DNA of 64,000 bases from an uncultured Methanosarcinales archaeon. GTDB taxonomy: Archaea; Nanobdellota; Nanobdellia; Woesearchaeales; ARS49. The DNA lies in assembly GCA_964572035.1 (NCBI GenBank), contig CAZNDX010000001.1, forward strand, positions 60,437-124,436, written 5' to 3'. The notes beneath the pieces were generated by a model, which saw only the letters and a program-made list of their open reading frames with translations, was not told where the DNA came from and ran no database searches. Below, in pieces: positions 7,501 to 22,581 of the stretch; position 1 is the stretch's first letter; each line of letters begins with the position of its first letter. The position numbers and the translations under genes are program-made.

Positions 7501-8031
7501 ATGGTACAGGAAGGAATAGATTACAAGATATTACACGATTCGTTATACAAAGCGGCAGACATACTAGAATCCTTTGCTAAATGTGATCTGGATGAAGTGG
7601 CAGATTACGACGATTTACAATCACGAGCTAATTACCTTTTTCTCTCCAAATACGTAAAAGAATCACTGACAATAGTTGGAAACGAACCTGAAAAATGGAA
7701 ATACATCACTGAGCAGTATCTGAAACCTCCAAGCTACAACAATCGAACAAGAAATGAGCTCCCAAAAAAATGCAAAGAGGAAGTTATACAAAGAGATGGA
7801 AACAAATGCAGAGTGTGCGGAAAAGAACAATCACTATCAATACACCACATATTGCCTCATTCATTAAACGGTCTGGACTCCCCTGAAAACTTAATGCAAT
7901 TATGTCAAGAATGCCACAAAAAAGTAAGCAAAAAAGACCCACTTGATATTCTTATAAACGCGGCAATAAAAGGAAAAGCCTCCGGGGGGAATTGCACCCC
8001 CGACCTGCTGATTACAAGTCAGCCGCAATAG
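7501..8031 (+). CDS. HNH endonuclease domain protein
   Basis: The C-terminal region CRVCGK...SIHHILPHSLNGLDSPENLMQLCQECH is a complete HNH motif. The 3' end reads into the tRNA-like element. Confidence 0.7.
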   Translation: MVQEGIDYKILHDSLYKAADILESFAKCDLDEVADYDDLQSRANYLFLSKYVKESLTIVGNEPEKWKYITEQYLKPPSYNNRTRNELPKKCKEEVIQRDGNKCRVCGKEQSLSIHHILPHSLNGLDSPENLMQLCQECHKKVSKKDPLDILINAAIKGKASGGNCTPDLLITSQPQ

Positions 8032-8049
8032 CTACTATGCTACGGAGGC
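7978..8049 (-). pseudogene. degenerate tRNA-like element (anticodon arm reads UGU/Thr-like); possible integration-site remnant
   Basis: The minus strand folds as acceptor GCCUCCG/CGGAGGC (7 bp), anticodon stem GCUGA/UCAGC with loop CUUGUAA, and T-arm GGGGG-UGCAAUU-CCCCC. The D-arm lacks GG and the T-loop has G at position 55, so it is unlikely to be functional. It is followed by T-tract. Confidence 0.4.
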
Positions 8050-11097: not shown

Positions 11098-11475
11098 TTG
11101 AAGCCAGACCAACACTTCGCGCCAATAACCATTTTCAACGGAAAACTAAGCCCTGGCGAGGCGCTCGTAAAACACTTACGGGAACACCACAACCTGCGGT
11201 TCACAGACATCGCTAAACTGCTAAACAGAGACCAAAGAGGAATCTGGTGCGCGTACAAGGCATCGCAAAAAAAAGAGCCAGAACACATTCCTTTTGACCC
11301 GCACCACATATTGTTCCCTGTGAACATGTTTTCTGACCGAAACTTCAGCATACTGGAACACATCGTGATTCATCTGCGGGAAAAATACACCGTAAAAGAA
11401 ATAGCGGAACTTCTAAACAAACACCCAAGCACAATAAGCACTATTCAGACGAGAGCAAGGAGGAAACAGCCTTGA
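11098..11475 (+). CDS. DNA-binding protein with two tandem HTH_10 / sigma-70 region-4-like helix-turn-helix repeats
   Basis: TTG start with AGAGG SD 7 nt upstream. Repeat 1 is LSPGEALVKHLREHHNLRFTDIAKLLNRDQRGIWCAYKAS and repeat 2 is FSILEHIVIHLREKYTVKEIAELLNKHPSTISTIQTRARRK. Its stop overlaps the TTG start of the giant surface protein gene. Confidence 0.55.
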   Translation: MKPDQHFAPITIFNGKLSPGEALVKHLREHHNLRFTDIAKLLNRDQRGIWCAYKASQKKEPEHIPFDPHHILFPVNMFSDRNFSILEHIVIHLREKYTVKEIAELLNKHPSTISTIQTRARRKQP

Positions 11476-14400
11476 GAATTCTGCCAATTTTACTGATATT
11501 GGCACTCGCTACGGCCACAGCAGGAGTTGACATATCAGAAATACTTGGCAAAAAATTGGAAGTAAAAAATGAAGAAAACAAAAATGAGAAACTAATTTCA
11601 GATACATTGTCAAAATTCACAGAACGATTAAAGGATAAAAACGAAATATCCCTAATTGACAAAACCGGAAAAGCGCAAATAAAACAAACATCCAGAAATT
11701 GGACGATCAACGCAACAATTGAAAATCACCCGATCAGAAAAATACAACTCAACAACGTAAGAGGAAAAAACAACACTCTAAAGATAGACACCCCAATAAT
11801 AAAAGACTCAAGACAGTCATACGCGATAGACCCCACGGAAATCAACTTCACCAACGGAGAAATAGAAGTAATCGCGAAAGGGGAGCACCTTTTCAAATGC
11901 CCCGGATGGAACTACACGACGGCAATCTGCGAAGAAACCTGCAAATTGAACAATGACCAAGAAGAAGTATGCCTTGAATGGTTTTACCAAAAAGAAATCA
12001 CTCCCGGACAACCATACACAATAGAGATAGCCCCAAATGACCCCGCGTTTTATGAAACATCCGCATCATCTGACGTGTCCGCAAGCCCCTATAACAGCAC
12101 AACAATACTAATCGCGTTCACCGATGTAACCCAAACCGACGTGGGATTTAAAATAATGGACACAAACGGGACTGAAATAGTAAATACAACACTTGTTGAC
12201 ACAACGGTTGACACAAGATCAAGAGTTGACTCAGCATGGATAAACTCAACACACTTCGTAATATTCTGGGCGGACACGCTTGAAAACGACGGAACATTTC
12301 AAATATGGAACTTCAACGGAACCCACGCGACAAGCGCGACAACTCCAATAGACGCAGACACAAGCATGGGAGGAATAAATGTTGACGTATCAATAGCCAT
12401 GCTAAACGACAGATTCGTAACCTGCTACGCGAACGACGGAGACTCTGACGCCGATTTCAGGGCTTTCGACTTTTTGGGAACACAAGTAGTTGGAGAAACC
12501 GCTGTTGACGGAAACATACTTCCAAGCGCACCCCTCCAAAACCAAATCGACTGCTCAGCGACGAGCAACAACAGATGGACTTATTTCACTTATGACGACG
12601 CTACTGTCAACGACGCGACATATTACATTCAAAGCGAAACAGGCGCAAGCATAGTAGGGGCAGTCGATATAGACACGGACGTCGGAGAGGAAGGACAAGT
12701 GACAGTCATAGGACTTAACGAAAACTTGTCAGGACTTGTTTGGTATGATTCAACAGACCAAGACATAACAATCGCGGGAGTCAACAACTCAGGAACAACA
12801 ATATTCGGACCAACCGACGCAGACACGGAAGCCGGGACTTCAAGCAGAGTCGCGGCGACAGGACTCAGGCAAGACAAAACATCAACCGACCAACTCTTCG
12901 CGTTCGCCTGGTACGACTCAGCAGACACCACAATAAAAGCGGCCGTTTATAGGACAAACGGGACACAATTCACCGCGCCATTCAACGTAACAACAACTCC
13001 AAACAGCACATATCAAATCATAGACATAACCGGAAGAGATAGCATAACAGGACAAGAAATATGCCCCGGCACGTTCATCGTCGCGTTCAGCAACTCAACT
13101 GGAAGAGGGGAATTCCTTGGCTTCTGGGCGAACAGTACACCATGGAACGGAACGTGCGTTGAAAACGAGCCACCCTCAATAAAAAACGCAACAGTTGTTC
13201 CTTCAATAGTGAACATAGGAAACAACGTGTGTTTCATTTTGAACGTTACAGACGCGGACGGTATAACGAACGTCACGGCAATCATAGACCCCCCACTTGG
13301 AGCCAACCAAACTCTGACTTTGAACGAAGGGTTATCATGCAACAGCATCCCAGGGGATAATTTATGGACAAACATTTACTTCCCAATAATTGACGCGACA
13401 CACATTTGGGGAACTGTAAACATAACAGACGGATTAGGGGTAACAACAACTCACGCGATTAATGTTAGTTTCGATGTATTACTCCCTTCGATATCAATTG
13501 AGGGAATTTACCCTCCAACTTTCGCAGCGTATAACGACGGAACAAACTTCAACGTCAGCCTGATTAATGTCTCGGATAACGTTTATACGACACAAACAAT
13601 ACCCGCAAATGTAAACACTCGAACATTCTTCAACTGGACACAGTTCAACTTAACCGACAAACAAATAAAAAACGCAGTTATTATAGTTGAGCATTCATAC
13701 TCGAACTCAACCAATCTCAACATAAGCCTTGACCAATTCAACGGAAGCGAATGGATCAGCAGATGCACACTCAGCGCAAGCCAAACTGACACAACCCACT
13801 TTTGCAACATAACCGTATTTGTAAATTCAACAACATTAAACAATCTTCAACTGAGATTGAACGCGAGCGCGACTTCAAATAGAACACAAAATGTGGACTA
13901 TATTGTTCTCAACCTAACCACAAACACGCCGCCAACAATCAACCACGACATAAACCAAACATACCTTTTGAACCAAACGGCGCTTCTAAGACTCAACGTC
14001 ACAGACCTCGAAAATGACACAATAATCAGAGTGAACGCCACAGTCACATCTCCAAGTGGAGCAACACTATTTTACAACTTCACAAACACAAACGGAACAT
14101 TATGGGACGCGACGCATGCCGACATGAAACTAAAAGGAATCTACAACATAACCATAAGGGCAACAGACAACCAAGGCAGCACAAGAGTAATTCAAACATT
14201 CTTCACAAGAAGAGCGTTTAACGTTGTCGACATAATAGAGCCAAAAGAAGAAGGAGTCCCAACGCTTCAGAATTTCAGCTTCCACAATTACACCGCCCAG
14301 ATAATCTCAAACCAATCAAACATACTTGCCCTATCCATAAACCTCACGGGAGCAGAAGTTAAACAAATTAACATAACTGGATACAACGAAAGCTCCCCAT

Positions 14401-16655
14401 ACAGCATAATTGAACTTAAAGACGATGAAGAAAACACGCCAAAAACAGTATCATTCACAGGATATCAAATAAACCCTGAAGGCCTTGACTTCACGAACGC
14501 GACACTTCTCCTGAACGCGAGCGGAAACCACTCATTATGGAAATGCGCGAACTACAACTTCACGGAAGAAAAATGCTTTGAAGGAAACTGGATAGAACAC
14601 CGAAACATAACAAAAGGCCAACTTTACACCGTAAATATAAACGCAACGGACCCCGCTTTTATCGAAACAACGGCGGCAGGAGACGTCGCAATGGACCCAC
14701 TAAACAACACAATATTCCTAATAGGATTTGTTGACATAGCTCAAACAGAGGTCTCATTTGAAATACTAAACACGAACGGAACAATAATCATTAATACAAC
14801 AGACGTGGACACAACAGTAACAACAAACGCAAGAGTTGACGTCAACTGGATAAACAGCAGCCACTTCGTAATATTCTGGGCAGACACAAACGATAACGAC
14901 GCGACATTCCAAATATTTAGCTTCAACGGAACAGCAACAACAAGCGTCGCAGGACCAATAGATGTCGACACATCAATGGGAAGCGCAAATGTTGACGTAT
15001 CACTCGCAATGCTAGACAACAGATTCGTAACGTGCTACGCGAACGACGCAGACTCTGACGCGGACTTTCAAGCATACAATTTCGCCGGAACACAAGTGGT
15101 TGTTGAAACCGCAGTGGATGGAAATATACAACCAAGCTCGCCGCTTCAAAATCTAATAGACTGCTCGGCAACAAACAACACCAGATGGACATATTTCACA
15201 TTTGATGACTCGACAGTCAACGACGCGACATACTACATTCTCGACAACACAGGAGGAACAATAGTGGGCGCGACAGACATAGACACAGACGTAGGAGAAA
15301 CAGGACAAGTAGCAGTAATTGGACTTAACAACAACCTTTCAGGGCTGGTATGGTATGACAGCACGGACCAAGACATATCAATCGCAGGAGTCAACAATTC
15401 AGGAACAACCACCTTCGGACCAACAGACGTCGACACAGGAGCCGGAACAGAAAGCAGAGTAGCAGGAGCAGCAGTCCGACAAAACAAAACATCAACCGAC
15501 CAACTATTCGCGTTCGCCTGGTGGTCACAAAGTAACGGAACGGTAAAGGCGTCAATTTACAGAACAAACGGAACGCAGTTCACGGCGCCGTTCAACGTAA
15601 GCGCATCGATAAACTCAACATTCCCAATAATAGACATAACCGGAAGGGACAACATAACAGGACAAGAAATATGCCCCGGCGCATTTTTAGTCGCTTTCAG
15701 TAACGGATCAACCGGCCAATTTGTCGGATACTGGGTGAACGGAACACCATGGAATGGAACATGCCCTATTGATTTAATAGCAACTCAACTAAACGCGAGC
15801 GACTTAAACCCTGATGAACTGGAAAACGTAACATTCAACGGAAGCATTTTCAACAACGGAACAAGCACCGCGTTTAATTTTATCTCAGCTATCGTGGATG
15901 GAAACTGCACTACTGGAACAATGATACAAAACAGAACAGTCAATCTCTCGGCGGGACAAAACACAACCCTAAACTTCAGCTGGAGCGCGACACCAGTGGG
16001 ACCGCACAACATAAGCTTTTGCGTCAACTACATAAACAATGTTCTGGAGGACAATTACACCAACAACAACATAACAATAACAATAAACGTCAAAGCGTAC
16101 AACGATTACTTCGGCAATATAACAGGAAATCTGACTCTTGACACAAACACAAACAACACTGAATACGACTGGAGATTCAATGACTCAGGAAACATCATCT
16201 TCACAAACTCACAAGTAACTGTGAACTTCACCGCGCTATACGCACTAGGAAGAAACACAACAGGCGGAATAGCGGTTAACGATTTTCTTGAAGCCGACCA
16301 AGCGCTGAACATGACAGGATTCAACGACAGCATACAAACACTATGGTCGACAAACGCAAGCCAGCCAAGACAAACAACAAACTTCACGGTGCGCGGAAGA
16401 ACAATAGAAAATGTGCCGTACATCAACAGCACAAACACAAGCAACTTCATAACAGGCATTTTGTGGCAATCTGTAAACAGCACAAGCAGAGAATTCAACG
16501 CGACGCAAAAGCAACCATTGCTGTTTGTAACAATGATAAACCGCAACCAAACAGGATTCTACGGAAGATATGATTATGAGGCGCACGTACCTGTGCTTCT
16601 GCGCTCCTATAATAGTACGTCCAACGCTTTGCAATATTTTGTTGAACTGAAATAA
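11472..16655 (+). CDS. giant secreted surface glycoprotein candidate (1727 aa) with a large internal duplication
   Basis: TTG start preceded by AGGAGG. Sec signal MRILPILLILALATATAG. There are more than 150 N-x-S/T sequons and acidic DxDxD motifs. Two modules of about 400 aa are roughly 75% identical. Confidence 0.8.
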   Translation: MRILPILLILALATATAGVDISEILGKKLEVKNEENKNEKLISDTLSKFTERLKDKNEISLIDKTGKAQIKQTSRNWTINATIENHPIRKIQLNNVRGKNNTLKIDTPIIKDSRQSYAIDPTEINFTNGEIEVIAKGEHLFKCPGWNYTTAICEETCKLNNDQEEVCLEWFYQKEITPGQPYTIEIAPNDPAFYETSASSDVSASPYNSTTILIAFTDVTQTDVGFKIMDTNGTEIVNTTLVDTTVDTRSRVDSAWINSTHFVIFWADTLENDGTFQIWNFNGTHATSATTPIDADTSMGGINVDVSIAMLNDRFVTCYANDGDSDADFRAFDFLGTQVVGETAVDGNILPSAPLQNQIDCSATSNNRWTYFTYDDATVNDATYYIQSETGASIVGAVDIDTDVGEEGQVTVIGLNENLSGLVWYDSTDQDITIAGVNNSGTTIFGPTDADTEAGTSSRVAATGLRQDKTSTDQLFAFAWYDSADTTIKAAVYRTNGTQFTAPFNVTTTPNSTYQIIDITGRDSITGQEICPGTFIVAFSNSTGRGEFLGFWANSTPWNGTCVENEPPSIKNATVVPSIVNIGNNVCFILNVTDADGITNVTAIIDPPLGANQTLTLNEGLSCNSIPGDNLWTNIYFPIIDATHIWGTVNITDGLGVTTTHAINVSFDVLLPSISIEGIYPPTFAAYNDGTNFNVSLINVSDNVYTTQTIPANVNTRTFFNWTQFNLTDKQIKNAVIIVEHSYSNSTNLNISLDQFNGSEWISRCTLSASQTDTTHFCNITVFVNSTTLNNLQLRLNASATSNRTQNVDYIVLNLTTNTPPTINHDINQTYLLNQTALLRLNVTDLENDTIIRVNATVTSPSGATLFYNFTNTNGTLWDATHADMKLKGIYNITIRATDNQGSTRVIQTFFTRRAFNVVDIIEPKEEGVPTLQNFSFHNYTAQIISNQSNILALSINLTGAEVKQINITGYNESSPYSIIELKDDEENTPKTVSFTGYQINPEGLDFTNATLLLNASGNHSLWKCANYNFTEEKCFEGNWIEHRNITKGQLYTVNINATDPAFIETTAAGDVAMDPLNNTIFLIGFVDIAQTEVSFEILNTNGTIIINTTDVDTTVTTNARVDVNWINSSHFVIFWADTNDNDATFQIFSFNGTATTSVAGPIDVDTSMGSANVDVSLAMLDNRFVTCYANDADSDADFQAYNFAGTQVVVETAVDGNIQPSSPLQNLIDCSATNNTRWTYFTFDDSTVNDATYYILDNTGGTIVGATDIDTDVGETGQVAVIGLNNNLSGLVWYDSTDQDISIAGVNNSGTTTFGPTDVDTGAGTESRVAGAAVRQNKTSTDQLFAFAWWSQSNGTVKASIYRTNGTQFTAPFNVSASINSTFPIIDITGRDNITGQEICPGAFLVAFSNGSTGQFVGYWVNGTPWNGTCPIDLIATQLNASDLNPDELENVTFNGSIFNNGTSTAFNFISAIVDGNCTTGTMIQNRTVNLSAGQNTTLNFSWSATPVGPHNISFCVNYINNVLEDNYTNNNITITINVKAYNDYFGNITGNLTLDTNTNNTEYDWRFNDSGNIIFTNSQVTVNFTALYALGRNTTGGIAVNDFLEADQALNMTGFNDSIQTLWSTNASQPRQTTNFTVRGRTIENVPYINSTNTSNFITGILWQSVNSTSREFNATQKQPLLFVTMINRNQTGFYGRYDYEAHVPVLLRSYNSTSNALQYFVELK
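11893..13157 (+). repeat. intragenic direct repeat, copy 1 (about 1.26 kb)
   Basis: Protein FKCPGWNYT...TPWNGTC. It shares identical nucleotide runs of at least 20 nt (e.g. cacttcgtaatattctgggc) with copy 2. Confidence 0.7.
14538..15764 (+). repeat. intragenic direct repeat, copy 2 (about 1.23 kb)
   Basis: Protein WKCANYNFT...TPWNGTC. About 75% aa identity to copy 1, offset about 2.6 kb. Confidence 0.7.
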
Positions 16656-16769: not shown

Positions 16770-16783
16770 CCTTGCATGCAAGG
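16770..16783. promoter_or_regulatory. 14-bp perfect palindrome CCTTGCATGCAAGG centred on the regulator start codon
   Basis: Read from the sequence. The ATG of ORF 16776 is the palindrome centre. Confidence 0.5.
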
Positions 16784-17246
16784 GGATCGCGTTCGAGAGA
16801 TAGTACTGAGTATAATCTCTAATTCTCAAACCCCGCTCGAAACCCCAGAAATCCTCGAACGCGTTCTTCAACAAACCAAGACGACAAGAACAATCGTCTT
16901 CAAACGCCTCACAGATTTGCGAGGCGACGGCGAGATATTCGGAGCGCACATCGGTTCCGGAAAAGGAACGTGGATTTGGTGGAACAAAGAACTGCACAAA
17001 GACGAGCAGAAAGCACCAACTTCCGACGACAAAATCGCCTCAAAAGTTCTCGAGACAATCTTCACTTCTCAAACTCCTCTAGAAACTAAGCAAATTGAGA
17101 AAATCGTGCAGGACGCGATCCCAACAACCCGCACGATAATTTTCAAACGCTTGACAGACTTGCGCGGCGACGGCAAAGTCAGAGGAAAACACGTCGGTTC
17201 CGGAAAGGGCGCCTGGATATGGTGGAGGGAAAATGCGACTAGATAA
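16776..17246 (+). CDS. tandem winged-helix DNA-binding protein (two ~70-aa repeats)
   Basis: Repeats SQTPLET.EI...TTRTI(V/I)FKRLTDLRGDG...G.H(I/V)GSGKG(T/A)WIWW occur twice. It lies just upstream of the paralogous secreted-protein genes and overlaps the first by 14 nt. Confidence 0.6.
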   Translation: MQGDRVREIVLSIISNSQTPLETPEILERVLQQTKTTRTIVFKRLTDLRGDGEIFGAHIGSGKGTWIWWNKELHKDEQKAPTSDDKIASKVLETIFTSQTPLETKQIEKIVQDAIPTTRTIIFKRLTDLRGDGKVRGKHVGSGKGAWIWWRENATR

Positions 17247-17916
17247 AAGTCTAGGCAAAGCGCTGATCGCAATCGCAATGGCCCTCATTATGGTAGCTGC
17301 AGCCTTCGCCCAGCCAGTAGGAGCGGGCGTGCAAACCGGAACACCAGTAACCAAGTCATTCATCAGCTCCGGAACAATAGGAGCGCAGGGAGGAAACGCG
17401 ACAACACTCAGCGCAACAACAGAAACGCAAACATTGTCCTGGCAGGGCTTCTACGGAGAAGTATCGGCCAATATGAGCCTGGAGAATTCAAACGGCAGCG
17501 TACTATACAGCTGGACCAACGCGACAAACGGAACAATATATCTCAGCAGAAAGGCAGCTGTCAACTTCGCCAACATAACAGCAGTAAACGTATGTACCGT
17601 CGATGAAAGCATCACAGGAACTGGCAGCGCAAGAGTAAACAACACATTCAGGTCAAGCAACAACACCGAGCTAATAGTTGGAGGAACAGTGATTCCACCT
17701 GGAACAGCGTGCGCGATGAACTCATACGTCAATAACGCAAGCCAGAGTAGCGCGTTCGAAGAAATCATCCTGACAGATGACGGAGTAACAACCATATACG
17801 CGACGCAGATAGAGGAGAACGCTCCAGGATTCGACGGACAGCCACACGACTGGCAGGCGCTAGTGCCATCCAACCTAACAACACTAACGTACTACGTATA
17901 CGTCGAATTCGAATAA
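17233..17916 (+). CDS. Sec-secreted protein, paralog family member A
   Basis: Signal peptide ending AFA-QP. Conserved AQGGNxT...WQGFYG core shared with 18010 and 20358. Sequon-rich. Confidence 0.65.
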   Translation: MRLDKSLGKALIAIAMALIMVAAAFAQPVGAGVQTGTPVTKSFISSGTIGAQGGNATTLSATTETQTLSWQGFYGEVSANMSLENSNGSVLYSWTNATNGTIYLSRKAAVNFANITAVNVCTVDESITGTGSARVNNTFRSSNNTELIVGGTVIPPGTACAMNSYVNNASQSSAFEEIILTDDGVTTIYATQIEENAPGFDGQPHDWQALVPSNLTTLTYYVYVEFE

Positions 17917-18009
17917 GCAAAACGAAATATTTAAATATCAGTATAGTCATATAAAAGGTCACCAGTATACGAAAACATATACTATAGTTGAGGGAAAAGA
18001 GGGATTTCA

Positions 18010-18690
18010 ATGAGAATAAAGACGCTAATTATCGGCATATTGATTTTAGCAGCAATGACAGTAATGGCTTACGCGCAACCACTCGGAGCGAGCACGCAAG
18101 TAGGAACCCCCCAAACAATCACGTCCGGGACTCCTGGCAACGCCACCGCGCAAGGTGGGAACATAACACTAGTCAACCTGACAGGGAGAGGAAGAGTAAA
18201 CGCCTGGCAAGGTTTCTACGGACAAGTAAGCGGAAACTTCTCACTTGAGGATACTACAGGGGACGTCCTTTACGCTTGGGATATCACAAACCACACAGGC
18301 GAAGTGTTCGCAAGCAGATTCTCAACAATCGATTTCACAACAGTCGCAGGAGTAACAACTTGCACAGTAGATGAAGATTTAACAGGGAACGGAAGAGAAC
18401 GAACAAACAGAACGTTCACAAACGCAACTGTAAACTTCACAATAGGAACCGTGAGCATAACTGAGGCGTGCAGAACATACACATACGTAAGCAACGCGAC
18501 TTCCACAAACTGGGAAGAAATAATCATCAACGCAACAGGCGTAACCAGCATTTACGTCGTCAAAATTAACGAATCCACACCAGTGTTTGACGGAACATCC
18601 CAGGACTACCAAATGATTGTGCCTGATAACAGAACGGCCGCGACAACAGTTTACTACTTTTACGCGGAATTTGACTCGACGAGCGAGTAA
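18010..18690 (+). CDS. Sec-secreted protein, paralog family member B
   Basis: Signal peptide ending AYA-QP. AQGGNITLVNLTG...AWQGFYGQVSG aligns with members A and C. Confidence 0.65.
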   Translation: MRIKTLIIGILILAAMTVMAYAQPLGASTQVGTPQTITSGTPGNATAQGGNITLVNLTGRGRVNAWQGFYGQVSGNFSLEDTTGDVLYAWDITNHTGEVFASRFSTIDFTTVAGVTTCTVDEDLTGNGRERTNRTFTNATVNFTIGTVSITEACRTYTYVSNATSTNWEEIIINATGVTSIYVVKINESTPVFDGTSQDYQMIVPDNRTAATTVYYFYAEFDSTSE

Positions 18691-18729
18691 ACAGATACCT
18701 TTTTAATATTCTTTTTTATTTGAATTTTT

Positions 18730-20394
18730 ATGAAAAAGGGATTTTTGCTAATATTTCTCATATTCGCGACAGCGGTCAGCGCTCAAGAAGTATACGTCGC
18801 CAACACAGCATCCTGGGAAAACATTTACAGCGCAGGAATATACAGCGCGCTATTAGGAAAAGAATTCTACTACCTCGTAAACGCGAGACATGCGGAAGCA
18901 TTGACAGCAGAACTGCCAAGAGGAGCAGACGTAACAGTAATCGAATCTGACAGAATCCCCTACGTAAAAAAATACGCAAACCGCTTAACAAACGCCGGAA
19001 TGAAATCACAAACAGTACTAGTTCCCGAGGATGACGCAAATCTTGACCTCGCAAAAAGACTCCCTCAAATAAACAGCTATTATCTAGTAAACCCAGTATT
19101 CGGATATGACGCGATAAGCGCCGCACCCCTCGCGATACAAACAAAATCATATGTGCTATTCGCCACAAAGGAAAACGCCAAAGAACTAGCCGAATTCCTC
19201 AGCAGCAAAACATTGTCAGGACTGACCATAGTTGGAGACGCAGACCAAGAAGTCATCAGCGCAGTCTCCCATCTAAACCCAAAAATAACCAACGAAGGAA
19301 ACAGATTCAAAAACAACATAGCCCTCGCCGAACAATACAGACAAGCAACAAACGCGCAACAAGCAATACTAACAAACGGAGAATTCCTAGAATACGACAT
19401 ATTCACAGCACAAAACCAGCCAATAGTATTCATAGGAAGAGACAGAGTCCCAGAACAATCACTCGAATACCTAAGGTCAGCACCATACAAAACATTCGTA
19501 GTCCTAGGGAAAGACCTCCTAGGAAGCAGCCAGTCAATAAAAACCTCAACACAAAAACCAGTATTCCTCAAATTCGCCAAAGGAACAACAGGACCAAACG
19601 GATTCCAAAACGTAAGAGGACTCGACCTATTCCCAACACCAGTATTCGAAATGCTCCTCTCATTCAAAACAATATACTACAACATCGACCAGCAGAAAGT
19701 AGAAATGGCAGTTCAAAACGAAAAGCCAGCAAGAACATACCTAGAAGCAAACATACTCCTCCAAGAAGGAGACACTCCAATCATAACACTAGGAGGAGAC
19801 GGATTCAGAATAGAAGGAAATACACAGCACACGTTCAGCTACGCCCAAGACTTAAGCGCCTACGCAACAAAAAACGTAACAGCGCAAGTAACAATACCAT
19901 ACGGCGAAAGCGAAGACACAATAGAAAGAGTTCTAACAGCAACACAACAACTAATATTCTTCTCAGAAAAAGACCTATGCAAACTAAGCATAAACGACGC
20001 AGAATACGACGACACAACACAGCGCTTCAAAATAACAGTCAAGTCGGACAAAGAATGCTACGCGCAAGCGACAATGCTAAACCTGACCATTAGCGATGAA
20101 ATCACCAACCCACAAAGCGGAACGGTAAGAATCGATGGAAAAACAACCATTGACGTCAAACAAAGAATGGACGAAGTTGACATCGCCGACAACCCAACAA
20201 TCACTGTAAGCGTCCGCTACGGAAGCGAGCCAAACGCGCTCATCAAAGAAATAACAAAAACAATGCCATTCAAGAGGACAAGCAGCATTAGCATGACGCT
20301 AATAATCGGAATCGCCGCAATAGCCGCAGTCGTATTACTAATAATTTTCATAATACTATGGAAACGAAAAAAACAACGGCGCTACTCGTACTGA
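18730..20394 (+). CDS. cell-envelope protein with putative cell-wall-binding (CW_binding_2-like) repeats and a C-terminal TM anchor plus basic tail
   Basis: Signal peptide. Segments such as DAISAAPLAIQTKSYVLFATKENAKEL resemble CW_binding_2 repeats. C-terminus LIIGIAAIAAVVLLIIFIILWKRKKQRR. Confidence 0.55.
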   Translation: MKKGFLLIFLIFATAVSAQEVYVANTASWENIYSAGIYSALLGKEFYYLVNARHAEALTAELPRGADVTVIESDRIPYVKKYANRLTNAGMKSQTVLVPEDDANLDLAKRLPQINSYYLVNPVFGYDAISAAPLAIQTKSYVLFATKENAKELAEFLSSKTLSGLTIVGDADQEVISAVSHLNPKITNEGNRFKNNIALAEQYRQATNAQQAILTNGEFLEYDIFTAQNQPIVFIGRDRVPEQSLEYLRSAPYKTFVVLGKDLLGSSQSIKTSTQKPVFLKFAKGTTGPNGFQNVRGLDLFPTPVFEMLLSFKTIYYNIDQQKVEMAVQNEKPARTYLEANILLQEGDTPIITLGGDGFRIEGNTQHTFSYAQDLSAYATKNVTAQVTIPYGESEDTIERVLTATQQLIFFSEKDLCKLSINDAEYDDTTQRFKITVKSDKECYAQATMLNLTISDEITNPQSGTVRIDGKTTIDVKQRMDEVDIADNPTITVSVRYGSEPNALIKEITKTMPFKRTSSISMTLIIGIAAIAAVVLLIIFIILWKRKKQRRYSY

Positions 20395-21887
20395 TATTTC
20401 TCGCAGGAATAGCGTTCGCGCAAGTTCCAGGGAGCGCTCCCGCTCAAGGAGGCAACATAACAATGGTGAACCTGAGCGTTTTCAATGAAACTCAGCGCTG
20501 GCAAGGATGGGTAGGAACAGTATTTTTCACAGGACCACTCACGCCACCAAGCGTTCCAGCAATAGGCGGAGAAATAAACTTCACACAAATAAACGTAACA
20601 AGCCCCTGCACCAGCCCAACAGCAGTAAGCGGATTCATACTGTTCAGCAACTCAAGCACAGCGCCAACAGGACTTGTCGCCGGAAATTTAACAATCCTTG
20701 ACCAATTCACAGGAGGAGGACCTGACAAGGGAAGCAGCACATTCACAGTCAACACAACATTCACAATCGGCGCGCCAATCACAAACGTACCAACAGCATA
20801 CCCGTACGTCAACAACGGAAGCCAAAGCACAGTATTCAGAGAAGGCTACCTGAACGACGCAGGAGGAAACATAGTTTTCGCGGTAGAAGTAAACCTGAAC
20901 ACCCAAGGATACAACAGCAGCTTCTTTGACTTCCAAGCGCTTCTCCCAGCAAGAAACAAAACAGCCGCAACTTGGTATTTGACAACAGACCTGCAAATAA
21001 CATGCCCGCCAGTCACCCCTCCATCTGGCGGAGGAGGCGGAAGACCATACTACCCACTATGCACTCCGTCGTGGAACTGCACAGGATGGGGGCCATGCCA
21101 AGACGGACTAATGCTAAGAAACTGCACATCTAACTTCTGCGGAAGAGCAATAGCAAGACCGCCAACAGCAAAAACCTGCGAAGCGATAATTTCACCTGAA
21201 ATGCAAGAACCGGAACTCATCGACAAACTGCACGGGACACAAATACTCGTTCAAGCGCCACAAGAGATAGAAATAGTCGCTGGGCAACTCACTCAAGTAT
21301 TAATCACCATACACAACCCAAATGACTACAGCATAGAAGACCTCAGCGCGACAATATCAACACCGTTCGTCACGCAAACATACACGCCACTCCAAACAAA
21401 ACCAAAGCTCTACCAACTTTTCGGAGTAATACCCAAAATAAAAAACATAGAAGAACACGCGATACGCTCAAGAACAACACCTACCCTAATGCTTCCAAAA
21501 GAAACCATAACACTCCCAGCATACCTTATAGGCCCTCCAATCATTCCGCAAAGAATATCAGCAACCCTCACGATAAAAAGCGGAGACATAACAATATTCA
21601 CACAACCAATAATTATAATAACAGAAGTCAACTCGCTAACACTAATGACTAACAAACAAGGAAGCACTATAACAGCATACATCATTCTAGATAACAGAGA
21701 ACAAAAAAGACAAAAAAAGTCTCTCGAACTGGATTTAAACCAAGGACGCACAACAAAACACGCAGACCTATTTGACATCACAATTGAACAAAACAAAGTC
21801 GCGACATACGCGCAAACATACAGAACAACATTCGATTACGACGCCGTTCGAGCGAGAACAGACAACGCAGTAATAGAGGTACGCTAA
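20358..21887 (+). CDS. Sec-secreted protein, paralog family member C with a Cys-rich linker and long C-terminal domain
   Basis: Signal ending AFA-QV. AQGGNITMVNLS...WQGWVG core. Linker PPSGGGGGRPYYPLCTPSWNCTGWGPCQDG...C..NFC. Overlaps the previous gene by 37 nt. Confidence 0.65.
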   Translation: METKKTTALLVLIFLAGIAFAQVPGSAPAQGGNITMVNLSVFNETQRWQGWVGTVFFTGPLTPPSVPAIGGEINFTQINVTSPCTSPTAVSGFILFSNSSTAPTGLVAGNLTILDQFTGGGPDKGSSTFTVNTTFTIGAPITNVPTAYPYVNNGSQSTVFREGYLNDAGGNIVFAVEVNLNTQGYNSSFFDFQALLPARNKTAATWYLTTDLQITCPPVTPPSGGGGGRPYYPLCTPSWNCTGWGPCQDGLMLRNCTSNFCGRAIARPPTAKTCEAIISPEMQEPELIDKLHGTQILVQAPQEIEIVAGQLTQVLITIHNPNDYSIEDLSATISTPFVTQTYTPLQTKPKLYQLFGVIPKIKNIEEHAIRSRTTPTLMLPKETITLPAYLIGPPIIPQRISATLTIKSGDITIFTQPIIIITEVNSLTLMTNKQGSTITAYIILDNREQKRQKKSLELDLNQGRTTKHADLFDITIEQNKVATYAQTYRTTFDYDAVRARTDNAVIEVR

Positions 21888-22009
21888 TGTACGTATTCGG
21901 AATAGACATACCAATAACACTGATTTTTCTATTCATTCTAGCCACGCAAATAATCATCATTATAGAGCTACTAATTTTAAGGAGGAAACATGATCGTCGC
22001 AGGAATTAA
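21887..22009 (+). CDS. hydrophobic micro-protein (40 aa) MYVFGIDIPITLIFLFILATQIIIIIELLILRRKHDRRRN
   Basis: ATG overlaps the TAA of the upstream gene (TAATG). Single TM helix plus basic tail. Too short for the ORF track. Paralogous to the next micro-ORF. Confidence 0.35.
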   Translation: MYVFGIDIPITLIFLFILATQIIIIIELLILRRKHDRRRN

Positions 22010-22088
22010 CCTCCCAATAACTGAAGCGATAATAATTCTGCAAACAGGCATCGCGCTATACTTTCTTTGGAAGATACTAAAGAATTAG
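21990..22088 (+). CDS. hydrophobic micro-protein (32 aa) MIVAGINLPITEAIIILQTGIALYFLWKILKN
   Basis: GGAGG 6 nt upstream of the ATG. N-terminus (M-x-V-x-GI-D/N-I/L-PIT) matches the preceding micro-ORF. Confidence 0.35.
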   Translation: MIVAGINLPITEAIIILQTGIALYFLWKILKN

Positions 22089-22116
22089 CAAAATCTTTAT
22101 AACAGGCACAAATTGG

Positions 22117-22581
22117 GTGAAGAATATGAAAGCCGAAGACTACAAACAGCTGCAAGCAAAACACAAAGACCTTCCTTCATTTGAGACACTAGACCAAGAA
22201 TTCTCAATATCACAGATTGACGCTGAAACACACCTGCTAATTGAAATTAAAAAGAAAATGGCGGAAAAACTAGAGCCGACAATAGACTTCCTCGCCGGAC
22301 TATTGAACCCAGAAGGGCTCACAAACATGTTTGAATGCAGAAACATGACAAAAAAAGACCAACAATCAATACTACAAACATACCAACACCTGATGGAGCA
22401 CTACCGGTACCTCCTTGAAACGGACATAATCTCAACTGATAACGCGCACGCCGACGCCATAGCAAGCATAACAAAAGCATGGCTCTCAAACAAAAAACCC
22501 CTTCTTGAGATAATAGGAAAAACACGCTGCAGCTGGCAGAAAAACATCGAGCCAAAAGAAATACTGGAGTACCTTGGATGA
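22117..22581 (+). CDS. hypothetical protein
   Basis: 154 aa. 4-nt overlap with adk suggests co-translation. No recognisable motif. Confidence 0.4.
   Translation: MKNMKAEDYKQLQAKHKDLPSFETLDQEFSISQIDAETHLLIEIKKKMAEKLEPTIDFLAGLLNPEGLTNMFECRNMTKKDQQSILQTYQHLMEHYRYLLETDIISTDNAHADAIASITKAWLSNKKPLLEIIGKTRCSWQKNIEPKEILEYLG

What the first reader, a model, noticed from the sequence alone, without database searches (positions are those of the whole stretch)
21887..22088. Two overlapping, paralogous hydrophobic micro-ORFs (40 and 32 aa) at the end of the surface island
MYVFGIDIPIT... and MIVAGINLPIT... share 7 of 11 N-terminal residues. Each is a single predicted TM helix with a short basic or aromatic tail. 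The first starts on the TAATG stop/start overlap of the upstream gene, and the second has a GGAGG SD. They overlap by 20 nt in different frames. The ORF track misses them by its size filter. They could be membrane-active peptides or small subunits of the surface system.
Basis: seen in the sequence. Interest (0 to 1): 0.5.

Follow-up and report, generated by a model that had tools for sequence, protein, structure and literature searches.

The report
Conserved micro-protein pair ending archaeal surface cassette
The two tiny overlapping genes are real, related, single-helix membrane proteins, and they always sit at the end of a conserved, fast-evolving cell-surface gene cassette of Woesearchaeota-type (DPANN) archaea, so they are probably its small membrane-embedded parts.

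Summary
ORF1 (21887-22009, 40 aa) starts in the TAATG overlap with the 509-aa gene. ORF2 (21990-22088, 32 aa) has GGAGG upstream and overlaps ORF1 by 20 nt.

Both are real coding genes. dN/dS is 0.1-0.3 in the claimed frames and 0.5-4.7 with stops in the others. Invariant residues use several synonymous codons, and codon position 3 varies most.

In 24 loci with a 509-like gene (down to about 30% identity), an ORF1-like gene starts 19 nt before to 12 nt after its stop. An ORF2-like gene follows directly. One further cassette (L043) lacks the pair. A Shine-Dalgarno-like motif precedes 24/24 ORF1 and 22/24 ORF2 starts, against 3.5% of background ATGs.

The two families are paralogous (hhalign 95.5%) and match nothing in Pfam, NCBIfam or PDB. 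Charges indicate an N-out/C-in topology.

The conserved cassette is giant CARDB protein, an optional wHTH protein, p226/227, p554 (C-terminal TM anchor), p509, ORF1, ORF2. Downstream genes vary.

Best reading: new small single-pass subunits of this surface system, probably a membrane anchor or assembly module. The mechanism is inferred. A toxin or bacteriocin role is unlikely.

The parts
21887..22009 (+). ORF1, a 40-aa micro-protein. It has a conserved acidic N-terminal motif (MYxF[GW]hDhP), one TM helix and an Arg/Lys-rich tail.
   Evidence: dN/dS is 0.11-0.44 in frame. Orthologues are present in 24 loci. Profile search hits are P0007 and P0008.
21990..22088 (+). ORF2, a 32-aa micro-protein paralogous to ORF1. 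It has the motif MIhhGhNLPhxE, an invariant E12, Q/H18, one TM helix and a short basic tail.
   Evidence: dN/dS is 0.19-0.65 in frame. Orthologues are present in 24 loci. hhalign against the ORF1 family gives 95.5%.
21876..21880 (+). Shine-Dalgarno-like GAGGT, 6 nt before the ORF1 ATG and inside the 3' end of the 509-aa gene.
   Evidence: An SD-like 5-mer of GGAGGTGA is present before 24/24 ORF1 starts, against 3.5% of background ATGs. It is kept in L020 although the overlapping codons of the 509-like gene differ.
21981..21985 (+). Shine-Dalgarno GGAGG, 4 nt before the ORF2 ATG. It is encoded within the Arg-Arg-Lys tail codons of ORF1.
   Evidence: 22/24 ORF2 starts have such a motif.
20358..21887 (+). 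p509, a secreted all-beta glycoprotein without a membrane anchor of its own. Its N-domain is paralogous to p226/p227, followed by a Cys-rich linker and two beta-sandwich domains. It is the gene the pair is always coupled to.
   Evidence: The AF2 model has pLDDT 79.6. Fold searches give generic Ig-like matches only.
18730..20394 (+). p554, a cassette protein with a signal peptide and a C-terminal TM anchor plus basic tail (...LLIIFIILWKRKKQRRYSY). It is the only other membrane-spanning cassette component.
   Evidence: It is conserved in all cassettes. There is a weak CWB2 hit below the cut-off.
17233..18690 (+). p227 and p226, two paralogous secreted proteins that share the N-domain of p509.
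16776..17246 (+). A 156-aa internally duplicated protein, wHTH-like by eye with no Pfam family above cut-off, at the conserved left edge of the variable island.
11472..16655 (+). Giant CARDB-domain surface protein that precedes the cassette in all loci long enough to show it.
22089..22125 (+). Conserved 37-nt spacer with TTTATAA (22096-22102), 24 nt before the ATG of the next gene (22126). It is probably an archaeal promoter and marks the operon boundary after ORF2.
   Evidence: The spacer is identical in L018 while coding DNA differs by about 10%, and two different MITE-like elements are inserted just upstream of it in other strains.

Best explanation
ORF1 and ORF2 are two translated, paralogous micro-proteins of a previously undescribed family. 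Each is a single-pass membrane protein.

- About 8-12 acidic, highly conserved residues lie outside the cell: MYxF[GW]hDhP in ORF1 and MIhhGhNLPhxE in ORF2.
- One TM helix carries conserved polar residues: E12 and Q/H18 in ORF2, and Q/S/H21 in ORF1.
- A Lys/Arg-rich tail lies in the cytoplasm.

They are the last two cistrons of a conserved surface-protein cassette of Woesearchaeota-type DPANN archaea. The order is giant CARDB protein, an optional wHTH protein, p226/227, p554, p509, ORF1, ORF2. They are translated by coupling to p509 through their own Shine-Dalgarno sites.

The most likely role (inferred, not shown) is a small membrane-embedded module, probably a heteromer and possibly including the C-terminal helix of p554. 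Its exposed N-terminal motifs would tether or organise the otherwise anchorless secreted cassette proteins, p509 first of all, at the membrane. In kind this resembles the small single-helix accessory subunits encoded inside operons of larger membrane complexes.
For: Shown:

1. Coding. dN/dS is 0.11-0.44 for ORF1 and mostly 0.19-0.31 for ORF2 (0.65 in the closest pair, which has only 6 differences). The other frames give 0.5-4.7 and carry stops. Length and frame are kept in all strains. Invariant residues use 2-6 synonymous codons, and entropy by codon position is 2 < 1 < 3.
2. Deep conservation. An exhaustive profile search of 1.84 billion proteins found divergent members P0006-P0008. In 24 loci with a full-length 509-like gene, plus further contigs of the same lineages (L028/29, L039, L047, L070/71, L073), an ORF1-type gene starts 19 nt before to 12 nt after its stop, and an ORF2-type gene follows.
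3. Translation signals. An SD-like 5-mer of GGAGGTGA precedes 24/24 ORF1 and 22/24 ORF2 starts. The rate is 3.5% for background ATGs and 3/42 for long ORFs of the window. ORF2 overlaps the ORF1 stop by ATGA in 17 loci and by 20 nt in 6.
4. Cassette membership. The upstream gene order is conserved in all loci while downstream genes differ. HMMs of both families hit once per cassette and nowhere else in the window or in loci holding only N-domain homologues.
5. Topology signature. In the N-terminal segments K+R is 1 (ORF1) and 0 (ORF2) against D+E of 25 and 24. In the tails K+R is 134 and 76.
6. Paralogy. hhalign gives 95.5%.
7. Anchoring. p509, p226 and p227 have signal peptides but no anchor, and only p554 has a C-terminal TM helix.

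Inferred: the physical association with p509 or p554 and the anchoring or organising role.
Against: - There is no direct evidence of translation, membrane insertion or interaction.
- One natural cassette (L043) has p509 without the pair, so the pair may be dispensable or supplied in trans.
- Between strains the micro-ORFs are much better conserved (78-84% nt) than the adjacent p227-p509 island (55-65%). That argues against allele-specific co-evolution with the variable surfaces of p509.
- Conservation along the helices shows no significant helical periodicity, so no single packing face is evident.
- An exposed segment of only about 8-12 residues is short for a docking site.
- The cassette itself matches no characterised system.
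Confidence: 0.6

Rival explanations
1. The pair are cassette-specific helpers of a general membrane machine (Sec translocon, signal peptidase, oligosaccharyltransferase or a lipid flippase). They would be needed to export or glycosylate the heavily N-glycosylated cassette proteins and would not be structural anchors.
For: - The cassette proteins are rich in N-x-S/T sequons and all have Sec-type signal peptides.
- The invariant membrane-embedded E12 and Q/H18 of ORF2 suggest a specific contact inside the membrane.
- The pair is conserved while the surface proteins vary. That fits a partner that does not vary.
Against: - No gene for such a machine is linked to the cassette in any locus.
- Strict coupling to p509 suggests a stoichiometric rather than catalytic relation.
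- Nothing was tested directly.
Confidence: 0.15
2. ORF1 is the detached C-terminal membrane anchor of p509 and is rejoined to it by programmed frameshifting or readthrough. The real product would then be an anchored p509, like p554.
For: - ORF1 has the layout of a C-terminal anchor: a short motif, a TM helix and a basic tail.
- It starts at the stop codon of an anchorless secreted protein, in the -1 frame, which is open for 33 codons upstream.
- p554 in the same cassette ends in just such an anchor.
Against: - The ORF1 start lies at -19, -18, -3, 0, +4, +5, +7 or +12 nt from the p509 stop, in all three relative frames. No recoding geometry is conserved.
- Every ORF1 has its own ATG (GTG in one lineage) and an SD-like motif (24/24).
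- The SD is kept in L020 although the overlapping p509 codons changed.
- By eye, no slippery heptamer is conserved in the aligned strains. No systematic scan was run.
- An origin by gene fission remains possible, but that concerns history, not mechanism.
Confidence: 0.05
3. The pair are membrane-active peptides: a type I toxin pair, holin-like peptides or a leaderless two-peptide bacteriocin.
For: - They are small, very hydrophobic, cationic at one end and tandem paralogues.
- From general knowledge, several toxins and two-peptide bacteriocins look like this.
Against: - They are single-copy, strictly syntenic and vertically conserved inside a structural cassette.
- Strong SD sites and translational coupling to an upstream structural gene are the opposite of the tight repression of type I toxins.
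- No immunity gene, ABC exporter or known RNA family is found nearby. An antisense RNA was not searched for specifically.
- The charges follow the positive-inside rule of stable integral proteins.
Confidence: 0.05
4. The ORFs are chance open frames, and the sequence is conserved for a non-coding reason such as a terminator, a promoter or an RNA.
For: - The ORFs are very short.
- ORF1 was not called by gene finders on several contigs.
Against: - Purifying selection is specific to the claimed frames.
- Amino-acid motifs are kept with different codons across relatives whose p509 is about 30% identical.
- No Rfam match was found.
- The profile search recovers independent gene calls from other lineages.
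Confidence: 0.02

Closest known systems
Operon-encoded single-helix accessory micro-proteins of membrane complexes (for example KdpF, CydX, AcrZ, MgtS in bacteria; Ost4 in eukaryotes). This comparison rests on general knowledge.
   Same: - They are 30-50 aa with one TM helix.
- They are encoded inside the operon of their partner, often with overlapping stop and start codons.
- They are conserved together with the partner.
- Annotation often misses them.
   Different: - There is no sequence similarity to them.
- The cassette here holds no polytopic membrane enzyme or transporter. Its proteins are secreted or single-anchor surface glycoproteins.
- Here there are two paralogous micro-proteins in tandem, and the conserved motif faces outside.
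C-terminal membrane anchors and tripartite sorting signals of surface proteins (TM helix plus basic tail as in p554 of this cassette; PGF-CTERM/archaeosortase, LPXTG/sortase, PEP-CTERM/exosortase signals). This comparison rests on general knowledge.
   Same: - The layout is a short signature motif, a hydrophobic helix and an Arg/Lys cluster.
- The position is directly after a secreted surface protein.
   Different: - They are separate genes with their own SD and ATG, in variable frames relative to p509.
- The motif is at a free N-terminus and is neither PGF, LPXTG nor PEP.
- No sortase-type enzyme was looked for or seen.
WxL / Csc cell-surface complex gene clusters of Firmicutes (PMC10599100, PMC1534035).
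   Same: - Both are conserved multi-gene surface cassettes.
- Both hold a small and a large secreted protein that share one domain.
- Both add a TM-anchored partner protein that holds them at the cell surface.
   Different: - This is an analogy of architecture only.
- There is no WxL, DUF916 or DUF3324 domain.
- The shared domain is N-terminal here.
- The host is an archaeon without peptidoglycan.
- The papers cited for WxL clusters do not mention a micro-protein pair.
Type I toxin-antitoxin hydrophobic toxins (Hok, Ldr, TisB, Fst, Ibs). This comparison rests on general knowledge.
   Same: They are short, have one hydrophobic helix and a charged end.
   Different: See the membership test. The pair is coupled to a structural operon, has strong SD sites, is single-copy and is stably syntenic. 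No antisense RNA is evident.

Membership tests
Operon-encoded single-TM accessory micro-proteins (a kind, not a sequence family) | Fewer than about 50 aa with one predicted TM helix | tested here: met
   The proteins are 40 and 32 aa. The Kyte-Doolittle 19-residue maximum is 2.88 for ORF1 and 1.71 for ORF2. Family members are 28-41 aa, and a few ORF1 types have longer charged tails.
Operon-encoded single-TM accessory micro-proteins (a kind, not a sequence family) | Encoded within, and translationally coupled to, the operon of the partner and co-conserved with it | tested here: met
   The pair is present in 24 of 25 distinct cassettes. The overlaps are TAATG or ATGA types, and SD motifs precede 24/24 and 22/24 starts.
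Operon-encoded single-TM accessory micro-proteins (a kind, not a sequence family) | Physical association with a larger membrane complex | not testable with these tools
   No multimer prediction or experiment was available. The cassette has no polytopic membrane protein, and only p554 has a TM helix.
Type I toxins | Own tightly repressed translation and a cis- or trans-encoded antisense RNA | tested here: not met
   Strong SD sites and coupling to the upstream structural gene are present. No RNA family was found at the locus. An antisense promoter was not specifically sought.
Type I toxins | Patchy, often multicopy distribution independent of neighbouring genes | tested here: not met
   There is one copy per cassette, always after the p509-like gene, and none elsewhere in the window or in other loci.
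Archaeal class III (prepilin-like) signal peptide proteins | Short basic leader ending in Gly or Ala at position -1 before the hydrophobic stretch | tested here: not met
   The N-terminal segments carry K+R of 1 (ORF1) and 0 (ORF2) over 24 sequences each. G5 is invariant in ORF2, but position 5 is W or Q in 8 of 24 ORF1 sequences.
Archaeal class III (prepilin-like) signal peptide proteins | Globular domain after the hydrophobic helix, and pilus ATPase, platform and peptidase genes nearby | tested here: not met
   The proteins end 5-15 residues after the helix. No such genes are in the cassette.
PGF-CTERM / LPXTG / PEP-CTERM sorting signals | The signal is the C-terminal end of the cargo polypeptide and carries the signature motif | tested here: not met
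   They are separate ORFs in variable frames with their own starts. The motif is MYxFGhDhP or MIhhGhNLPhxE.
Leaderless two-peptide bacteriocins | Linked immunity and export genes, a strain-variable accessory locus, and secreted amphipathic peptides | tested here: not met
   No such genes are present. The pair is conserved across lineages whose 509-like gene is down to about 30% identical. The helices are uniformly hydrophobic and the charges follow the positive-inside rule.
Any curated protein family (Pfam-A, NCBIfam, PDB sequences) | Significant profile match | tested here: not met
   There was no hit for either ORF. There was none for the 22 ORF2-type members in Pfam at E below 0.09, and none in PDB with either family profile.

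The most novel reading that the evidence does not exclude
The pair is a 'split anchor'. Two free-standing micro-proteins would insert N-out. Through their invariant 8-12-residue ectomotifs (beta-strand-like MYVFGID and MIVAGINLP) they would dock non-covalently, for example by strand addition, to a beta-sandwich domain of the anchorless p509 or of p226/227. That would let a hypervariable, exchangeable set of surface proteins plug into a constant membrane socket. It would be a new way of attaching archaeal surface structures, possibly the host-contact apparatus of these DPANN cells.
Probability: 0.2. Interest if true: 0.65.

Novelty: new member of a known kind. Interest (0 to 1): 0.45.

Why it matters
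Woesearchaeota-type DPANN archaea are uncultivated, and their cell surface is essentially uncharacterised. It is presumably the interface with hosts and viruses.

This analysis defines a conserved seven- or eight-gene surface cassette. Its four large genes diverge far faster than the flanking genome. Two micro-proteins, unannotated in the searched databases and with no prior description found, are constant parts of it.

That gives a concrete, testable handle on how the variable surface proteins are held at the membrane: two 30-40-aa peptides with invariant residues.

It also adds a well-supported example to the sparse catalogue of functional archaeal micro-proteins. And it shows that gene callers handle them inconsistently, since ORF1 was skipped on several contigs.

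Tried and rejected
- **Word-based homologue searches.** The search with ORF1 alone found only itself and a 95% variant. With an ORF1/ORF2 alignment it added only close ORF2 variants.
- **Genome-collection scan with p509.** It gave one partial Pacearchaeota hit at a contig end, useless for synteny.
- **Family libraries.** Pfam, NCBIfam, PDB sequence searches and Rfam gave nothing for the micro-ORFs.
- **Naming the cassette by structure.**
- **Helical periodicity of conservation in the TM helices.** It was not significant (1250 and 3946 of 10000 shuffles).
- **Link to the downstream p151-adk genes.** Rejected, because that neighbourhood exists only in close relatives.
- **Frameshift fusion with p509.** Rejected.
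- **Weak HMM hits of the ORF1 profile to p554-type C-terminal anchors.** At E 0.6-0.8 they were judged to be generic TM similarity.
- **Cluster look-up.** It gave no accession or organism name for the window's proteins.
- **Literature searches.** They found no description of these micro-proteins or of the cassette.
Full report
**1. The observation**

- ORF1 (21887-22009, 40 aa) begins with the ATG of a TAATG. The TAA of that TAATG ends the 509-aa gene (20358-21887).
- ORF2 (21990-22088, 32 aa) is preceded by AAGGAGG, with GGAGG at 21981-21985.
- ORF2 overlaps ORF1 by 20 nt in another frame.
- The two products share 7 of their first 11 residues.
- Each has one hydrophobic stretch and a short basic tail.

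The + strand of this window is A-rich. Hydrophobic small ORFs are therefore common as junk on the minus strand but rare on the plus strand. ORF1 is the only strongly hydrophobic ATG-started small ORF on the plus strand of the 64 kb.

The similarity of the pair exceeds composition-preserving shuffles in the window (Smith-Waterman 7/5000, N-terminal identities 3/20000). It is weaker in sister strains.

**2. Are they genes?**

Exact look-ups showed the same two ORFs called on about two dozen near-identical contigs. More useful were the diverged strains L018, L020, L022-L026 and L031.

- Both frames, both lengths and both overlaps are intact in all of them. This holds even where gene callers skipped ORF1.
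- Nei-Gojobori dN/dS in the claimed frames is 0.11-0.44 for ORF1.
- For ORF2 it is mostly 0.19-0.31. It reaches 0.65 only in the closest pair, which has 6 differences.
- The two alternative frames give 0.5-4.7 and contain stops.
- One Lys-to-Arg change in the ORF1 tail took three nucleotide changes (AAA to CGC), which keeps the charge.

**3. How far does the family reach?**

Word-based searches found only close variants. An exhaustive HMMER profile search of 1.84 billion representatives found three more distant micro-proteins:

- P0006, an ORF2 type of 32 aa.
- P0007 and P0008, ORF1 types of 37 and 41 aa.

In their contigs the upstream gene is again 509-like. A partner micro-ORF is present even where it was not called.

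I then searched with the 509-aa protein itself. This gave 46 clusters, all 'hypothetical'. The three that carry an organism name are Candidatus Woesearchaeota (two full-length) and, for N-domain-only hits, an Ainarchaeum and an Anstonellaceae archaeon. The alignment of these was used to fetch 38 metagenome loci and two more by exact look-up.

The results in these loci were as follows.

- In 24 distinct loci with a full-length 509-like gene, down to about 30% identity, an ORF1-type gene starts 19 nt before to 12 nt after its stop codon.
- An ORF2-type gene follows. It overlaps the ORF1 stop by ATGA in 17 loci and by 20 nt in the 6 loci of the window's clade. In one locus it is separated by 6 nt.
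- The only exception is L043. There, homology to its near relative L048 stops exactly at the 509-like stop codon and unrelated DNA follows.
- HMMs of both families hit once per cassette. They hit nowhere else in the window or in the loci that contain only N-domain homologues.

**4. Translation signals**

Every ORF1 start (24/24) and 22/24 ORF2 starts have a 5-mer or longer match to GGAGGTGA within 4-16 nt upstream. From general knowledge, GGAGGTGA is the complement of the archaeal 16S 3' end. The same criterion is met by 3.5% of all ATGs in the same loci and by only 3 of 42 long ORFs in the window, although those starts were not curated.

In L020 the SD before ORF1 is retained although the overlapping C-terminal codons of the 509-like gene changed (EVR* to AEAK*).

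The ORF1 start occurs in all three frames relative to the 509-like gene. That excludes a conserved frameshift or readthrough fusion.

Invariant residues are encoded by several synonymous codons. Pro9 uses all four codons and conserved Leu positions use five or six. Nucleotide entropy is lowest at codon position 2 and highest at position 3.

**5. What the proteins look like**

ORF1 family:
- M1 and F4 are invariant. Y2, D7 and P9 are nearly so.
- A helix follows, often with Q, S or H at position 21 and sometimes Glu at 24 or 27.
- The tail is Lys/Arg-rich. In a few lineages it extends to 45-90 aa with charged sequence.

ORF2 family:
- M1, G5, P9 and E12 are invariant.
- I2, N7, L8, L17, Q/H18 and L25 are nearly so.

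Charge distribution over 24 sequences of each family:
- The N-terminal segments hold 1 (ORF1) and 0 (ORF2) basic residues against 25 and 24 acidic ones.
- The tails hold 134 and 76 basic residues.

By the positive-inside rule this indicates an N-out/C-in topology, which puts the best-conserved residues at the outer membrane face. The second residue is bulky (Y or I), so from general knowledge of methionine aminopeptidase specificity Met1 should be retained.

Profile-profile comparison of the two families gives 95.5% probability and E 1.4e-8 over 35 columns. The two are therefore ancient tandem paralogues.

Part of the ORF1 tail sequence is dictated by the SD of ORF2 (AGG-AGG = Arg-Arg, AAG-GTG-GT = Lys-Gly-Gly). 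In the window's clade it is also dictated by the conserved ORF2 N-terminal codons read in another frame.

Neither family matches Pfam, NCBIfam or any PDB sequence.

**6. Context**

In all loci long enough to show it, the order is:
1. A giant CARDB-domain protein.
2. Often a duplicated 156-aa protein (wHTH-like by eye).
3. One or two p226/p227-like secreted proteins.
4. A p554-like protein with a C-terminal TM anchor.
5. The p509-like protein.
6. ORF1.
7. ORF2.

Further points:
- Downstream genes vary. The p151-adk pair is there only in close relatives. Elsewhere the neighbour is a convergent gene or an unrelated one.
- After ORF2 the window has a 37-nt spacer that is identical in L018 and contains TTTATAA 24 nt before the next ATG.
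- Two different MITE-like elements have inserted immediately after the ORF2 stop in other strains. The transcription unit most likely ends with ORF2.
- The N-terminal 220 residues of p509 are paralogous to p226 and p227.
- p509, p226 and p227 have signal peptides but no anchor.
- Against L020 and L031, nucleotide identity is 55-65% across p227-p509 (17250-21850). It jumps to 78-88% from about 21900 onwards. The micro-ORFs thus sit on the conserved right edge of a hypervariable four-gene island. The 156-aa gene forms the left edge.

**7. What the cassette is**

This could not be named.
- Sequence libraries gave nothing above cut-off.
- The AF2 model of p509 (pLDDT 79.6) is all-beta with two C-terminal sandwich domains. 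It matches only generic Ig-like domains.
- A preprint that predicts S-layer proteins assigns MSTP-like beta-sandwich proteins to Nanoarchaeota (10.1101/2024.05.28.596244). No MSTP-like family was among the Pfam hits for the cassette proteins.

**8. Interpretation**

Shown:
- The two ORFs are real coding genes under purifying selection.
- They are paralogous.
- Their translation signals are conserved.
- They are integral, single-copy components of this cassette across a wide span of Woesearchaeota-type archaea.

Inferred:
- They insert N-out/C-in.
- They act with the cassette proteins, most simply as a small membrane module that tethers or organises the anchorless secreted proteins. The p554 anchor may be part of that module.

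The closest known kind is the operon-encoded single-helix accessory subunit (KdpF, CydX, AcrZ and the like). The closest architectural analogy for the whole cassette is the WxL/Csc surface-complex cluster of Firmicutes (PMC10599100, PMC1534035). Membership of either is not claimed.

Toxin, bacteriocin, prepilin and sorting-signal readings each fail defining features (see the membership test). L043, the better conservation of the pair relative to p509, and the lack of a periodic conserved helix face temper the specific anchor model.

**9. Verdict**

This is a solid, previously undescribed micro-protein pair with clear comparative support and an unknown, testable role. It is of moderate interest. 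It is a new member of a known kind (small single-pass accessory proteins), set in an uncharacterised DPANN surface cassette.

Noticed in passing
window 17250-21850: The four surface genes p227, p226, p554 and p509 form a hypervariable island. Nucleotide identity to related strains L020 and L031 is 55-65%, while both flanks are 78-94%. Protein identities are 51-64% in the island against 87-96% in the flanks. L022 looks like a recombinant within the micro-ORF region.
   Followed up: partly
window about 22088/22089; L018:10203-10370; L023:421-570: Two different MITE-like elements of about 150-168 nt are inserted exactly after the ORF2 stop in other strains. They share termini (GCGTGTTGA...AACACGCCTAATA) and an AAGTAGC flanking repeat. 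The L018 element has an internal inverted repeat GCCCTGTTGCC/GGCAACAGGGC. No other copy is in the fetched DNA.
   Followed up: partly
window 22089-22125: This 37-nt spacer is 100% identical between the window and L018, although neighbouring coding DNA differs by about 10%. It contains TTTATAA (22096-22102) 24 nt before the ATG of the 151-aa gene. That is a likely archaeal promoter for a nearly leaderless p151-adk transcript.
   Followed up: no
window, whole: Shine-Dalgarno-like motifs are rare before long ORFs (3 of 42, starts not curated). The genome seems to use them mainly for internal cistrons such as the two micro-ORFs.
   Followed up: partly
window, whole: The + strand is A- and C-rich in nearly every 2-kb bin whatever the gene orientation (AT skew +0.08 to +0.48, GC skew negative in all bins but one). 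This is a strong replication-type strand bias, and the whole window appears to lie on one replichore.
   Followed up: no
L043:7597-8330; L049:20-2512: There are two cassette variants. L043 has a 509-like gene with no micro-ORF pair, and its homology to L048 ends at the stop codon. L049 has an extra partial cassette (p226-p554) without p509 and without micro-ORFs.
   Followed up: partly
window 16776-17246; L018:4645-5352; L035:402-1356: The 156-aa protein at the left edge of the island is an internal duplication of a module of about 75 aa (...TRTI[VI]FKRLTDLRGDG...GSGKG[TA]WIWW). It is 235 aa in L018 and present as two genes in L035.
   Followed up: no
[not shown]
   Followed up: partly
window 7501-8049: An HNH-endonuclease ORF (7501-8031, +) overlaps the tRNA-Thr gene on the opposite strand (7977-8049) by about 55 nt.
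   Followed up: no
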